Shown: positions 6,813-49,645, counted from the first letter of the stretch. The stretch is 64,000 bases of DNA from Rhynchopus sp. YZ270_cl-10 (GCA_964035575.1 OZ037839.1:620001-684000), one strand, 5' to 3'. Numbers and translations: made by a program. The notes: a model not told the origin generated them from the sequence alone.

Positions 6813-7799
6813 CTAAAGGTACCCTTTCACTGCATTGTGCACGCAGTGCACAGAATACACTAAAAGCAAAGAAGCGACCCAAGGCGTCCAATCAACAGTT
6901 GCCACGAATAGACACCATGCTCGATGACAAGCCACATGGTACTGCACTACGTAGCTACACGTGTCCAGTCCACGCACAGTCTTCAAGTTTGTGCATTGAA
7001 ACATGAAGCAGGACCCGATTGTGGTGACTGCACGCAAGCCAGTGAGGTTTACTGTCGTCAATGATGTACACGAATATAGGAAATGATCTTCGATCCTGGT
7101 GAGTGCAGACAAGCCGCTCAGGTCAACAGCGGTCAGTGATGTGCACCGTTCTAGGCACCATTCATCAATTGTGGTGACTGACCGTAAGCTGCTGAGGTCG
7201 ACTGTCGTCAAAGCAGTGCAATGACACATAAAACTTTCACCAATTGTGGTGACTGCACGCAAGCCAGTGAAATTCACTGTCGTCAATGCTGTACATGAAT
7301 ATAGGAAATGATCCTCAATCCTGGTGAGTGCAGACAAGCCGCTCAGGTCTACTGCGGTCAAAGCTGCGCAGTGGTGGAAGAAGCCGTTCCCAATCACATC
7401 CACAACAGATACGTTGCTGAAATCAATGGATGTTACCGCAGTGTGTTGGAAGAAGTAGTCTGGAATCGCAGTCGTAACTTCTGCCTGCAGCAGCAAGGTG
7501 GCCACCTTCGCATCCCTCACCACCTCCAACCTTGCTGCTGTGATGTCTCTCTCACCCAATGCGTGAAGTGCTGCAATGGCTTCGTACTTCTTCGCCTTCG
7601 CCTCCGTCAACACAACTGTGTCTCCAGCACTCAGCTGCGTGATGTCCTCCACTTCCTCCCCTCCAAACTCCATGTGAAAGTCGTCTTCGCACAACCCCGT
7701 TGCAGACGCCACCTTCTCCCGCAACTTATCCGTTGTGTCATCCTCACCCACCTCAATCGCATACTGCATATTGCCAAAGGTACGAACCGTCAGTTCCAT
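6813..7799 (-). CDS. Ubiquitin-like domain + BspA-like LRR protein (copy 1, divergent)
   Basis: N-terminal ~70 aa with a ubiquitin-fold pattern (MELTVRTF..IEVGEDDTTDKLREKV..LSAGDTVVL), then 25-aa repeats LTxVDLSGLxAxTxIxxxFLxxC and a hydrophobic C-terminal extension. Confidence 0.8.
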   Translation of the reverse strand: MELTVRTFGNMQYAIEVGEDDTTDKLREKVASATGLCEDDFHMEFGGEEVEDITQLSAGDTVVLTEAKAKKYEAIAALHALGERDITAARLEVVRDAKVATLLLQAEVTTAIPDYFFQHTAVTSIDFSNVSVVDVIGNGFFHHCAALTAVDLSGLSALTRIEDHFLYSCTALTTVNFTGLRAVTTIGESFMCHCTALTTVDLSSLRSVTTIDEWCLERCTSLTAVDLSGLSALTRIEDHFLYSCTSLTTVNLTGLRAVTTIGSCFMFQCTNLKTVRGLDTCSYVVQYHVACHRAWCLFVATVDWTPWVASLLLVYSVHCVHNAVKGYL

Positions 7800-8443
7800 T
7801 TTATTTTTGTGTGTCTCTCTGTTTCTTGGTGGCTGTTGTGTGTGTGGGGGTGAGGGACAGCACATTGGCAAGCAGAAAAACGGTTTTTTTTTTCTCACAA
7901 ACCATCTCACAAAGGCACTGTTTTGTCGATTTCTTCATTTTCCCCGCTGGGCCTGACTTCCGCTGAGTCCACCATATTTTTACTCGATTAGATTGGGGTG
8001 GAAATTGTTTTACTGCCAAAAAAAACACAAAAATTCTGAAAACGGTGATAAAAAAAGTTAGGGCGAGAAGTACACCAACCAAGAAATTATTGTACACTCG
8101 ACGTTTGGATAAAGAAAACCAGAGACAAAGTAAAAAAGGACTCTGTGGGTCTATCGTAGCGTTAACACACTTTCCAAAGCAACCTTGACCAAAACAAAGA
8201 TAGCGTTTTCATTTGCGTGTACACGCTATGCTTTTGCGCATAAGAAAACAAAGAGAAGTTGAAAGTACAAACGCCTGACCTGTACATGAACCGTTCAAGA
8301 AGGGGGCTGTTATCCTTAGTTCGCAGGAAGCTTTTGAGGGGTAAGAGAACTGAACACAGCATACGCGAGATGAGTTCTACACTGCAGTGCTCAGCCCGCA
8401 CCGCAGCCACAACACCGTCGCTTGCTTCTTTCGCATTCAGTCT

Positions 8444-9487
8444 TCATTCGCAAAGATCCTTCATCTCTCCTTCGCGTACTCTACTGGACACAGCACTGCT
8501 GCAGCCGGCGAGGCGGATGCTCTTCAACGATGTGCAGTGCTCAGCAACTCCGTAATCCATATCAGTGACTTTGCTGAACGGTGATAAGTCCAAAGCTGTG
8601 AGACTACTGCAGTTGAAAACAAAGCTCGATCCAATTTCTGTCGTCCTGCCGAGTGGTGACAGGTCTAATTCTGTGAGACCTACGCAGGAGCTAACGAAGC
8701 CGTCGGCAATTAGCGTAACATTGCTGAGTGGTGACAGATTTAGCGCAGTGAGTCCCTTGCAGCCGGCAAGAAAATATGACTCGATAGCAGAAACCTTGCT
8801 GAGTGCTGACAGGTCTAATTCTGTGAGTCCCTTGCAGCCGGCAAGAAAGTTGTCGCCAACTTCTGCAATCCCGCTGAGTGGCGACAGATTCAGTGTTGTG
8901 AGGCTCTCGCAGCTGCACATAAAGCATCCAGGAATATACGTAACATTGCAGAGTGGCAGGGTCAATGCGGTAAGGTATTTGCAGTGGTAAAGAAAGCAGT
9001 CACCAATCTGCGTAAGACGACGCAGCCCAGAGAGGTCGATGCTTATCACCGTTGTGCTGGAGAGGAGGAACCCGTCGCAAATTTTCGTCACGCCAGACAC
9101 AGCACTCAAGTCCAGTCTCGTTAGCGATGACTCACTCAGAAACCTTCTCGGAATTTCAGTCGCAACCTCCGCCTGAAGAAGCAGAGCAGCCACTTCAGGA
9201 TCCCTCACAGTCGTCAAGGTCTCTGCTGTGATGTCGGTCTCACCCAATGCATGAAGCTCTGCTATGGCTTCGTACTTCACCGTTTTCGTCAACACGACAG
9301 AGTCTCCAGCACTCAGTTCTGTGATGTCCTCTCCTTCCTCCTTCCCTCCGAAGCCCATGTGGAAGCTGTCTTCGCACAACCCTGTTGCTGTCGCCACCTT
9401 CTGCCGCATCGTCTCCGTTGTGTCGTTCTCACCCACCTCAATCACGAATTTGGTGTCATCATCATATCCCTGCACACACAGTTCCAT
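8444..9487 (-). CDS. Ubiquitin-like domain + LRR protein (copy 2)
   Basis: Same UBL N-terminus (MELCVQGYDDD...) followed by LTxLDLSPLSxVxxIxxxFLxxC repeats. The ATG at 9487 is preferred over the upstream TTG. Confidence 0.85.
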   Translation of the reverse strand: MELCVQGYDDDTKFVIEVGENDTTETMRQKVATATGLCEDSFHMGFGGKEEGEDITELSAGDSVVLTKTVKYEAIAELHALGETDITAETLTTVRDPEVAALLLQAEVATEIPRRFLSESSLTRLDLSAVSGVTKICDGFLLSSTTVISIDLSGLRRLTQIGDCFLYHCKYLTALTLPLCNVTYIPGCFMCSCESLTTLNLSPLSGIAEVGDNFLAGCKGLTELDLSALSKVSAIESYFLAGCKGLTALNLSPLSNVTLIADGFVSSCVGLTELDLSPLGRTTEIGSSFVFNCSSLTALDLSPFSKVTDMDYGVAEHCTSLKSIRLAGCSSAVSSRVREGEMKDLCE

Positions 9488-47679: not shown

Positions 47680-48643
47680 TTTTTTAGGATTCTTGACGAC
47701 CGTGCTCTTCATGGTGGGGTCGCGTTGCTCTGGAGTCCCTTCGGGACCCCTCTTAGAGCCCTGTAAGGCAAGGTAAAAATTGCAAAAAATCCCGAAATTC
47801 TATAGTTTTTTTTTTTTTTTCCCGGTTTTTTGTGGGATTTGGTCCCACATACAGATACCTATATACATCACTGGCTCGGGTGGAGGATTATCCTCCTAGG
47901 GGTTTTATAGTGGGCGGTCACTTTGTCTCCCCCCGAGGGAGCCAATATTTTCCCGAGCCTGTATGCACCGTCCAGGGCTGCACCTTAAAAAAAATTTGCC
48001 TGCGGCGCCATTTTCATTTTTTGCTACTCAAAAAAAGGGTTCGTTGAGTGATTCTGTGGTGTAAAAGGAAGCATTTTTACACCGTACCCTAATTTTTTTT
48101 CGCCTGCGGCGCCATTTATATTATTTTTTTGCTCCGCAAAAAAATAGAGTTGGCAATGTCTTTGGATGCCCTTGAATTTTTGCAGCCGAAGAATGCAACT
48201 TGACCCCAAAGCTGCAAAAATTTTGCCATTTTGAGACGCATTGGAGTTAGACGTATTGGTTTTGTATGGTTCGTGGAGCGTACGGTGCAAGAGAAAAGAT
48301 TAAATTTCCGTTTTTTATTATCTCGCAAAATTGACCCGCCTCTCCGCTCTGTGGCTGTCAGGGAGGCGCGCGCGAAGCGCGCGACGACCGCTTGTTGCGG
48401 GGGGAAATTTTTTTTTTTTGGGGTGTTTTTTTGCAAAAATGAAATCCTCCTCATTTCGAAAATTCTGCTTTTTTCGTGGAGGATCTTGAGAGCCCTGGTA
48501 ACTATCCTGTTTTTTTTTTTGAGCGTTCTTTTCCCCACAAAAAAAGATGCCTCTTCTGTCTGTGTGCAAACACTACTCGACCCGCCCAAACACACAGAAT
48601 AATCCTAACACCCCAATTCCCACTCCCGCTTTCTTTACTGCCC

Positions 48644-49645
48644 CTAAAAACCAACGTCACCTAGTCTGCTGCGTACAACGTTGCTACACTTGTCCATTCC
48701 GTCGACTTTCGACAACATTTTGCAGTTGGAAAGAAACCTGTCACCAATCATGGTGACTGCTTGCAGGCCGGTGAAGTCCACTTCCGACAACGTTGTGCAG
48801 AAGGAGAGAAAATTGGTACCAATCGTGGTGACTGATTGCAGGCCGGTGAAGTCCACTTTCGACAACGTTGTGCAGTTGCAGAGAAACCCGCCACTAATCG
48901 TGGTGACTGCTTGCAGGCCGCTGAAGTCCACTTCCGACAACGTTGTGCAGTTGGAGAGAAAATAATTACCAATCGTGGTGACTGCTTGCAGGCCGGTGAA
49001 GTCCACTTTCGACAACGATGTGCAGTTGTAGAGAAACCCGTCACTAATCGTGGTGACTGCTTGCAGGCCGCTGAAGTCCACTTCCGACAACATTTTGCAG
49101 TTGTAGAGAAAATTGGTACCAATCGTGGTGACTGCTTGCAGGCCGGTGAAGTCCACTTTCGACAACGATGTGCAGGAGGAGAGAAACCCGTCACTAATCA
49201 TGGTGACGCAGGGTAATGCAGGCAGGTGCAGTGTGATGCCACAGTTGTCATCCACATTGGGTACGCAACTGAAACCAATGCGCGTTACGTCACTACGTGA
49301 GAAGAAGGCTTTTGGAATCTCAGTCGCAACTTCTGCCTGAAGAAGCAAGCTGGCCACCTTCGGATCGTCCACCTGCTGCAACCTTTCTGCTGTGATGTTT
49401 GTCTCACCCAATGCATGAAGAGCTGATATGGCTTCGTACTTCATCGTTTTCGTCAACACGACTGTGTCTCCAGCACTCAGTTCTGTGATGTCCTCTCCTT
49501 CCTCCTTCCCTCCGAAGCCCATGCGGAAGCTGTCTTCGCACAACTCTGTTGCAGACGCCACCTTCTGCCGCATCGTCTCCGTTGTGTCGTTCTCACCCAC
49601 CTCCATCACGAAGTCCTTCCCCAAGCCCTGGATAGTCAGTTCCAT
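48644..49645 (-). CDS. Ubiquitin-like domain + LRR protein (7 LRR units; displaced copy)
   Basis: MELTIQGLGKDFVMEVGEND... start, and it shares the 3' flank with the array copies. An upstream in-frame ATG exists at 49741. Confidence 0.88.
   Translation of the reverse strand: MELTIQGLGKDFVMEVGENDTTETMRQKVASATELCEDSFRMGFGGKEEGEDITELSAGDTVVLTKTMKYEAISALHALGETNITAERLQQVDDPKVASLLLQAEVATEIPKAFFSRSDVTRIGFSCVPNVDDNCGITLHLPALPCVTMISDGFLSSCTSLSKVDFTGLQAVTTIGTNFLYNCKMLSEVDFSGLQAVTTISDGFLYNCTSLSKVDFTGLQAVTTIGNYFLSNCTTLSEVDFSGLQAVTTISGGFLCNCTTLSKVDFTGLQSVTTIGTNFLSFCTTLSEVDFTGLQAVTMIGDRFLSNCKMLSKVDGMDKCSNVVRSRLGDVGF

What the first reader, a model, noticed from the sequence alone, without database searches (positions are those of the whole stretch)
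6813..49645. Expanding UBL-LRR family with hypervariable repeat positions and variable repeat number
Seen: seven genes with a conserved ubiquitin-like N-terminus (no C-terminal diGly), a helical linker (YEAIxALHALGETDITAERL..VASLLLQAEV) and 25-aa LRRs. In the four closest copies the unit number is 8, 7, 5 and 7. The scaffold LS(E/K)VDFTGLQAVTTI is almost invariant while the IG-xx and FL-xx-C positions vary (EG, DY, DD, GG, AG, TN, NY, DR). Near-identical UBLs are attached to different LRR classes. Inference: a recombining set of cytosolic recognition proteins that may deliver bound targets to the proteasome/p97 via the UBL, i.e. a candidate protist intracellular defence or quality-control repertoire.
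Basis: partly seen in the sequence, partly recalled or inferred. Interest (0 to 1): 0.75.

Follow-up and report, generated by a model that had tools for sequence, protein, structure and literature searches.

The report
Hypervariable LRR family with targeted retrotransposon
A protist carries hundreds of shuffled genes that join a ubiquitin-like domain to leucine-rich repeats diversified at four positions per repeat, likely an intracellular recognition repertoire, and a retrotransposon family inserts repeatedly at one spot in these genes, often fusing its deubiquitinase-like protein in frame to the host domain.

Summary
The family is real. Seven minus-strand genes encode a ubiquitin-fold domain (UBL, no diGly), a three-helix cap and 25-residue TpLRR/BspA repeats. 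At least 269 database clusters share the UBL plus cap. In 23 window repeat units, codons 17, 18, 21 and 22 need at least 19.5 replacements, against at most 11 in 1,250 neutral simulations. Repeats are exchanged between genes, and the genes are mosaics.

(1) The variable residues lie outside the LRR beta-strand face, which is nearly invariant.
(2) The ubiquitin Ile44 position is G/S/E, which weakens a classical proteasome-shuttle role.
(3) One of the seven genes is split by a 9,008-bp non-LTR retrotransposon (OTU-ORF1, 2A, APE, RT; 19-bp target duplication).

The element is site-specific for this family. All 13 family proteins (of 250) with a clear element match join it at the UBL/cap junction, and 6 of 8 ORF1 N-termini are in-frame UBL fusions.

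Best reading: a diversifying intracellular recognition repertoire that is also a retrotransposon hot spot. Ligands, UBL partner and expression are unshown.

The parts
6813..7799 (-). g1: UBL-cap-LRR, 328 aa, hydrophobic C-terminal tail class
8444..9487 (-). g2: UBL-cap-LRR, 347 aa; UBL near-identical to g5 but on another LRR class
11871..13223 (-). g3: UBL-cap-LRR, 450 aa; mosaic breakpoint near CDS nt 204, inside the element's target site
14884..15835 (-). g4 3' part: cap plus 7 full LRR units and a terminal half unit, cut off from its UBL by the retrotransposon
15253..15318 (+). 66-nt in-frame insert in g4 repeat 3; 52 nt of it match a g3 repeat at 94% in inverted orientation
15817..15835 (-). 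19-bp target-site duplication, 3' copy
15836..24843 (-). 9,008-bp non-LTR retrotransposon in sense orientation, inserted at the UBL/cap junction
15906..19397 (-). Element RT frame (RVT_1, E 1.5e-19); out of frame with the APE part in this copy, one 1666-aa ORF in related copies
19195..20910 (-). Element APE endonuclease frame, with a 2A-like DxExxPGP motif at about 20635-20658
20911..24843 (-). Element ORF1 with an OTU protease domain (about 24289-24633, E 8.8e-10), open in frame from the host UBL as a 1381-aa chimera
24844..25056 (-). g4 5' part (UBL), ending in the 5' copy of the target duplication (24844-24862)
26372..27379 (-). g5: UBL-cap-LRR, 335 aa, 6 full units; folded with mean pLDDT 91.7
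30812..31666 (-). g6: UBL-cap-LRR, 284 aa, 4 full units
48644..49645 (-). g7: UBL-cap-LRR, 333 aa, 6 full units; holds an unoccupied exact copy of the 19-bp target
13902..14883 (.). About 1-kb 3' flank duplicated with g4, g5 and g6 (also 25389-26371 and 29824-30811; 94-96% identity), with a small ORF lacking any Pfam match

Best explanation
These genes are a large, shuffled family of UBL-cap-LRR proteins whose repeats are diversified at four positions, likely an intracellular recognition repertoire, and a non-LTR retrotransposon inserts again and again at the junction between their UBL and cap. Shown: the architecture; repeat exchange within and between genes; excess replacement at unit positions 17, 18, 21 and 22; mosaic UBL/LRR combinations; many separate insertions at one codon position. 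Inferred: positions 17/18 and 21/22 flank the buried F-L pair and stack into variable stripes on the side away from the beta-sheet, where they would bind changing foreign proteins (virus, symbiont or mobile element). Inferred: alternative tails (Cxxx, basic NLS-like, hydrophobic) would send members to membranes or the nucleus. Inferred: the conserved acidic UBL would dock the complex on one shared host factor of the ubiquitin system by a surface other than the Ile44 patch, leading to removal of the target. Inferred: the element's APE nuclease recognises the conserved junction DNA and uses the family as a multi-copy safe haven, as Ingi and L1Tc use RHS genes.
For: Fold: UBL is ubiquitin-like, LRR is TpLRR (Z 20.0, rmsd 2.8, 194 aligned). 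Family size: 269 of 394 candidates for UBL+cap. Positions 17/18/21/22 are the most variable in 515 units from non-window homologs (Neff 10-12). In window DNA they carry 19.5 minimum replacements on 9.8 sites, against 8.5 synonymous changes on 18.2 sites (ratio 4.3, p 9e-5). Local synonymous control p about 0.02. 0 of 1,250 free-recombination neutral simulations reach 19.5, maximum 11. Units differ equally within and between genes (8.3 vs 8.6 nt), and 65 of 171 site pairs fail the four-gamete test. MaxChi breakpoints have p<=0.002 in 9 of 10 pairs. Of 145 proteins, 26 end in Cxxx, 16 have a basic NLS-like tail and 14 a hydrophobic tail. Three representatives carry B-boxes before the UBL. Element: 16 of 34 UBL-only proteins run into it at the junction (6 full-length in frame, 1 diverged out of frame, 9 5'-truncated at different points), and 4 of 6 cap-only proteins begin with its 3' end. 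13 of 13 stricter matches among 250 proteins lie at the junction.
Against: No ligand, partner, localisation or expression was shown. The synonymous rate inside the four variable codons is also raised (2.5 on 2.2 sites, against 0.37 per site elsewhere), so local mutation or conversion-boundary effects may contribute; the within-codon ratio is only 1.75. M2a also flags positions 3 and 11, which have 2-3 alleles, a sign of inflation by recombination. Repeats generally diversify under relaxed plus positive selection (PMC5120217, abstract), so this pattern does not by itself mean defence. The surface mapping rests on DSSP and LRR anatomy, not on coordinates. The tail counts are of related proteins, not independent events. 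No genome was available, so element copies outside the family could not be counted.
Confidence: 0.5

Rival explanations
1. Classical UBL shuttle or midnolin-like adaptor: the LRR captures a substrate and the UBL binds proteasome receptors directly.
For: Ubiquitin fold without diGly. One VIA row, Z 10.2, is a chain of the Rpn1/NUB1-UBL proteasome structure 8usd, tied with plain ubiquitin rows. Weak OTU1_UBXL matches in 34 of 109 members, best E 0.011, would fit Cdc48 rather than the proteasome.
Against: The Ile44 equivalent is G/S/E and the surface is acidic. That most proteasome UBL receptors use this patch is recalled, not tested here.
Confidence: 0.13
2. Allorecognition or selfish toxin-antidote type genes that recognise variable host proteins rather than pathogens, like the fungal HNWD genes.
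For: Same evolutionary signature as Podospora het-d/het-e: concerted repeat exchange and four selected residues per repeat (PMC1805685, abstract).
Against: No nucleotide-binding or cell-death domain in the window genes, in the 25 families shown for 109 members or in 47 representatives. Hundreds of paralogs is far more than the 10-member fungal family.
Confidence: 0.13
3. Surface or exported BspA-like adhesins or effectors acting on prey or host cells.
For: TpLRR class. Trichomonas has 911 BspA proteins, and a CAAX-bearing Entamoeba BspA was reported at the cell surface (PMC2843621, passages).
Against: No hydrophobic N-terminus (highest 10-residue mean 1.49). An N-terminal UBL, B-box forms and NLS-like tails fit the cytosol or nucleus.
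Confidence: 0.12
4. A largely neutral, RHS-like expansion driven by tandem duplication, conversion and the retrotransposon, with variability at unconstrained loop positions.
For: Many disrupted copies, co-duplicated 1-kb flanks, and raised synonymous change in the variable codons.
Against: Neutral simulations never approach the observed replacements. The same four positions vary in every subfamily. Core residues of the UBL and cap are invariant in 109 proteins.
Confidence: 0.1
5. Assembly artefact (false duplication of copies).
For: No contig spans the region tested. Runs X1 and X3 share a study that may be the assembly's source.
Against: Copies differ by 4-6% with different repeat numbers, and the differences concentrate in replacement sites. 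29 of 30 bins of g4 and the element junction are covered at >=99% identity in X1, X3 and X4 (two studies), and 15 of 30 in X6.
Confidence: 0.02

Closest known systems
BspA/TpLRR (Pfam LRR_5) expansions of Trichomonas and Entamoeba
   Same: Same repeat class and fold; large paralog sets; some members end in Cxxx (PMC2843621, passages).
   Different: 25-residue units, an N-terminal UBL plus three-helix cap, and B-box variants. The word ubiquitin does not occur in that paper's main text.
Podospora HNWD (het-d/het-e) WD40 repertoire
   Same: Repeats exchanged within and between loci, variable repeat number, four positively selected positions per repeat (PMC1805685, abstract and outline).
   Different: LRR instead of WD40, no nucleotide-binding domain found, hundreds of genes, UBL at the N-terminus.
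Trypanosome RHS genes targeted by RIME/Ingi and L1Tc; TcTREZO in MASP
   Same: A protein-coding multigene family used as the insertion target of a non-LTR element (PMC6967402 and PMC5814959, passages); L1Tc has APE, RT and a 2A motif.
   Different: The target is a UBL-LRR family, cut at a domain boundary. The element is 9 kb with a separate OTU-bearing ORF1, has no poly(A) tail and no Pfam RNase H match, and often fuses in frame to the host UBL.
F-box-LRR/FNIP adaptor expansions (Megavirus baoshan FNIP passage in PMC9525666; Chlamydiae PMC4209131, listing only; nematode F-box families recalled)
   Same: A conserved ubiquitin-system module plus a variable repeat domain.
   Different: UBL instead of F-box; no F-box-domain family among the 25 Pfam families shown.
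UBL shuttles (Rad23, Dsk2, NUB1), midnolin, and TRIM proteins (all recalled)
   Same: Integral UBL without diGly; B-box zinc fingers ahead of a variable recognition domain in a few members.
   Different: Ile44 patch lost; no UBA or RING match; the recognition domain is TpLRR.

Membership tests
Integral ubiquitin-like domain (beta-grasp) | Ubiquitin fold | tested here: met
   Strand-strand-helix-strand-strand order; rmsd 1.7-1.8 A, Z 10.4-10.8; Pfam ubiquitin in 90 of 109 members at E<=1, best 8e-7
Conjugatable ubiquitin-like modifier | C-terminal diGly | tested here: not met
   UBL ends in LTKxxK
Proteasome shuttle UBL | Hydrophobic residue at the Ile44 position | tested here: not met
   G 56%, S 24%, E 11% of 238 UBLs
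Proteasome shuttle UBL | Binding to Rpn1/Rpn10/Rpn13 or Cdc48 | not testable with these tools
   No host partner sequence in hand; needs a pull-down
TpLRR/BspA (LRR_5) | LRR_5 profile above the curated cut-off and TpLRR fold | tested here: met
   All 7 LRR regions above 27.7 bits; 6mlx Z 20.0
Concave-face variable LRR receptors (VLR/NLR type) | Variability at the exposed positions of the LxxLxL strand | tested here: not met
   Positions 2,3,5,7,8: 5 minimum replacements on 11.4 sites, against 19.5 on 9.8 at 17/18/21/22; Neff 1.5-5 against 10-12
HNWD-type diversifying repeat repertoire | Concerted exchange of repeats within and between loci | tested here: met
   8.3 vs 8.6 nt; 65 of 171 incompatible pairs
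HNWD-type diversifying repeat repertoire | Positive selection at a few positions per repeat | tested here: met
   caveat of raised local synonymous rate
HNWD/NLR proteins | Nucleotide-binding (NACHT/NB-ARC) domain | tested here: not met
   The six intact window proteins are fully accounted for by UBL, cap, LRR and tail; no such Pfam match
UBA or F-box (for the three-helix linker) | Profile or fold match | tested here: inconclusive
   No Pfam or PDB-sequence match shown. Internalin and YopM rows align from residue 69-70, which fits an LRR N-cap. The isolated model was poor (pLDDT 61)
APE-type non-LTR retrotransposon | APE, RT, target duplication, 5'-truncated copies | tested here: met
Site-specific non-LTR retrotransposon | Independent insertions at one homologous site | tested here: met
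   13 of 13 matches among 250 family proteins; 6 of 8 ORF1 N-termini UBL-fused, on four contigs; both 3'-junction loose ends shown lead into other family members (5 rows not shown)
Site-specific non-LTR retrotransposon | Few or no copies outside the target | not testable with these tools
   No genome held
Ingi/L1Tc clade | 2A motif upstream of APE | tested here: met
   DVEEHPGP here, DVEENPGP in related copies; L1Tc consensus DxExNPGP
Ingi/L1Tc clade | RNase H domain | tested here: inconclusive
   No Pfam match in the window frame or in P0308
Ingi/L1Tc clade | RT phylogeny; Pr77/HDV ribozyme hallmark | not tested
   No reference RTs in hand; only an Rfam scan at gathering score, which found no ribozyme
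TRIM-like | RING, B-box, coiled coil | tested here: inconclusive
   B-box in 3 representatives, one at the curated cut-off (E 3.1e-5); no RING match; coiled coil not tested

The most novel reading that the evidence does not exclude
A coupled host-element system. The family is a protist intracellular immune repertoire. The site-specific element nicks exactly between the effector (UBL) and recognition (cap-LRR) modules and so drives module swapping. Its in-frame UBL-OTU-ORF1 chimeras are expressed from the host gene's start and act as deubiquitinases aimed at the same pathway. One of the window's mosaic breakpoints (g3, near CDS nt 204) lies within the 19-bp target.
Probability: 0.15. Interest if true: 0.92.

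Novelty: new variant of a known kind. Interest (0 to 1): 0.72.

Why it matters
Little is known about how free-living protists recognise intracellular invaders. This family offers hundreds of small, single-exon, foldable candidate sensors with defined variable positions, so ligand screens and UBL pull-downs become direct tests. The variable surface lies away from the usual LRR binding face. The element is a sequence-specific retrotransposon with a known 19-bp target in a protein-coding family, and it carries an OTU domain. It allows a test of whether targeted nicking shuffles host domains, and it adds a candidate site-specific APE nuclease.

Tried and rejected
No genome was held, so the census rests on protein databases.

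No RNA holder was listed, so expression is open. The one guessed RNA run held 0.06 of the words and is no evidence.

ESM Atlas was unreachable. The isolated UBL+cap model was weak and gave no Foldseek match at E<=0.001. Searches of earlier findings returned nothing.

DGR-like adenine mutagenesis was considered and rejected: scaffold adenines are invariant, and variable codons include GGG and GAG. The linker as UBA or F-box found no support. M2a alone was not relied on, because recombination inflates it.

Spread of a single insertion by gene conversion was rejected: 5' truncation points differ (element nt 3522 to 8361) and the flanks match each host gene. Obligate in-frame fusion was rejected: out-of-frame and truncated junctions exist.

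No complex prediction was run, as no host partner sequence was in hand.

Literature: no paper held diplonemid + leucine-rich repeat + BspA together. The listings showed no title describing this family or an OTU-bearing non-LTR element. PMC2836005 mentions OTU for Ginger DNA transposons (listing only). The TpLRR structure paper and the original RHS paper were not held. Subscription papers, Repbase and all supplements were not seen; the supplement of PMC10161547 on repeats and gene families may bear on novelty.
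Full report
Setting. No genome was held. All long ORFs with protein evidence lie on the minus strand, including uninterrupted 1177- and 1859-aa frames. The only named relative among 14 clusters looked up is a UBL-only match from Rhynchopus euleeides. A 160-nt LSU rRNA fragment sits at 10341-10500; scattered 28S pieces and co-transcribed gene clusters are reported for Diplonema (PMC10161547, passages). 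The host is therefore likely a diplonemid. This is an inference.

Observation. Seven loci carry the UBL, cap and LRR modules. AlphaFold2 on a 109-sequence alignment gave g5 a mean pLDDT of 91.7, with strands 2-6, 13-17, 42-46 and 63-68, helix 24-35, three helices at 70-105 and an LRR solenoid. VIA-align matches the LRR to TpLRR 6mlx (Z 20.0, rmsd 2.8, 194 aligned) and residues 1-70 to ubiquitin (Z 10.4, rmsd 1.7-1.8). Internalin and YopM rows align from residue 69-70, so the helices are likely an LRR N-cap. Contigs of three runs cover 29 of 30 bins of g4 at >=99% identity, a fourth run covers 15 of 30, and none spans the stretch.

Family. g5 finds 382 proteins among 2652 candidates. Its first 112 residues find 269 among 394. 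All listed non-window hits are unnamed ENA records, on 40 different contig lengths; the unlisted hits were not seen, and that all come from one genome is likely but not shown. A profile search of 1.84 billion representatives gave 213 hits at E<=0.001, part of them polyubiquitin-like. Of 247 family proteins held, 203 have both UBL and cap. Three representatives have B-boxes before the UBL. Of 145 proteins, 26 end in Cxxx (20 of them CSVS), 16 have a basic NLS-like tail and 14 a hydrophobic tail. No N-terminus looks like a signal peptide.

Diversification. Positions 17, 18, 21 and 22 were picked as most variable from 515 units of non-window homologs and then tested on the 23 full units of g4-g7. 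They need at least 19.5 replacements on 9.8 sites, against 8.5 synonymous changes on 18.2 sites over the whole unit (ratio 4.3, p 9e-5). Against synonymous sites of codons 16-25 alone, p is about 0.02. None of 1,250 simulations with free recombination and neutral variable codons exceeded 11. M2a beats M1a (2dL 43.7, omega 7.3), but it also flags low-diversity positions 3 and 11, so it is inflated. Against this reading, the synonymous rate within the four codons is also high (1.14 per site). Units differ as much within genes as between them, and 65 of 171 site pairs are incompatible. MaxChi finds breakpoints in 9 of 10 gene pairs, which are not independent: near nt 204 for g3, 267 for g2, and 31-64 for g6 and g7. 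g4 also holds a 66-nt in-frame insert, 52 nt of which match a g3 repeat in inverted orientation at 94%. The pattern equals that of Podospora het-d/het-e (PMC1805685, abstract).

Where the variation lies. The main strand is at unit positions 3-5 and a minor strand at 14-15. The strand-face positions are nearly fixed. The variable pairs flank the conserved F19-L20 in the variable segment, which in LRRs forms the convex side (PMC9525666, first of six parts and passages).

The UBL. It lacks diGly. The residue aligned to Ile44 is G, S or E in 91% of 238 UBLs, and the domain is acidic. That proteasome receptors mostly use the Ile44 patch is recalled. The strong conservation of the UBL implies a shared partner, but probably not through that patch.

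The retrotransposon. g4 is split by a 9,008-bp element with a 19-bp duplication; the same 19 bases stand unoccupied in g7. It encodes ORF1 with an OTU domain, a 2A-like motif, APE and RT. This copy is frameshifted between APE and RT, whereas related copies give one 1666-aa ORF. ORF1 is open in frame from the host UBL. A search with the chimera's first 330 residues, plus cluster look-up, gave eight ORF1 proteins with an intact N-terminus (a C-terminal fragment and a 54%-identical relative were left out). Six begin with six different family UBLs joined at the same codon, on four contigs. Of 34 UBL-only proteins, 16 continue into the element within a few residues of the UBL end, nine of them as 5'-truncated copies with different start points; one weak hit lying further in (P0210) was not counted. 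Four of six cap-only proteins start with the element's 3' end. With a stricter search, 13 of 250 family proteins match the element and all do so at the junction. A more diverged subfamily (75% identical RT) uses the same site. Two loose ends in coded runs lead from the 3' end into other members' junctions. A fixed target, variable 5' ends and host-matched flanks indicate repeated target-primed insertion. The closest precedent is RHS genes as targets of RIME/Ingi and L1Tc (PMC6967402 and PMC5814959, passages). PMC12278014 (passages) has no mention of OTU.

Mechanism. Most likely (0.5) this is an intracellular recognition repertoire. Unequal exchange of 75-bp units reshuffles variant codons, and selection favours new surfaces. 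Tails place members in different compartments, and the UBL docks on one host factor of the ubiquitin system. The element exploits the conserved junction as a safe haven. The genetic steps are shown; the ligand, partner and compartment steps are inferred. The rivals are a direct proteasome shuttle (0.13), allorecognition or selfish genes (0.13), surface effectors (0.12; PMC2843621, passages), neutral expansion (0.1; PMC5120217, abstract) and artefact (0.02).

Novelty. Each ingredient has a precedent. The searches named under Tried and rejected found no description of this combination, within a library that lacks most subscription papers. Verdict: a new variant of known kinds, interest 0.72.

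Noticed in passing
window 10341-10500 (+) and 10620-11170: A 160-nt eukaryotic LSU rRNA fragment followed by about 79 copies of a 7-bp repeat at 99% identity; possibly an rRNA-derived SINE-like insert between g2 and g3.
   Followed up: no
window 15836-15896: Several contigs hold only the last 57-61 bases of the element joined to unrelated DNA: many very short 3' remnants or a non-autonomous partner. The element's 3' end shares an 8-base word with its target, and has no poly(A).
   Followed up: partly
window 21894-22617 (-): Alanine/glutamate-rich coiled-coil-like tandem repeat in element ORF1; ORF1 length varies among copies (chimeras of 1276-1425 aa).
   Followed up: no
window 15817-15835 (-): The duplicated target contains an in-frame ATG, so the downstream half of a split gene could in principle yield a UBL-less cap-LRR protein.
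   Followed up: no
window 14077-14586, 25564-26043, 30003-30512 (-): Small ORF co-duplicated with g4, g5 and g6; no Pfam match.
   Followed up: partly
window 32111-35644 (-): 1177-aa ORF with no Pfam match.
   Followed up: no
window 58421-64000 (-): 5'-open 1859-aa frame with a signal-like hydrophobic stretch, plant-type LRRs, Pro/Thr-rich stalk and one hydrophobic segment near the C-terminus; likely a surface receptor.
   Followed up: no
window 4674-6227 (-): Cytochrome b5-fused fatty acid desaturase.
   Followed up: no
window 37514-38675 / 46400-47540; 40290-40722 / 53811-53380; 39146-39413 / 51265-51555: Dispersed non-coding repeats, 87-91% identical, one pair inverted.
   Followed up: no
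proteins P0164, P0199, P0204 and P0162, P0206, P0208: Several family proteins break off near residue 93-95 into shared unrelated tails: a second recurrent break or an intron position in the cap.
   Followed up: no
proteins P0218, P0225, P0234, P0301, P0302: B-box-UBL-LRR forms on other contigs, TRIM-like in layout but without a RING match.
   Followed up: partly
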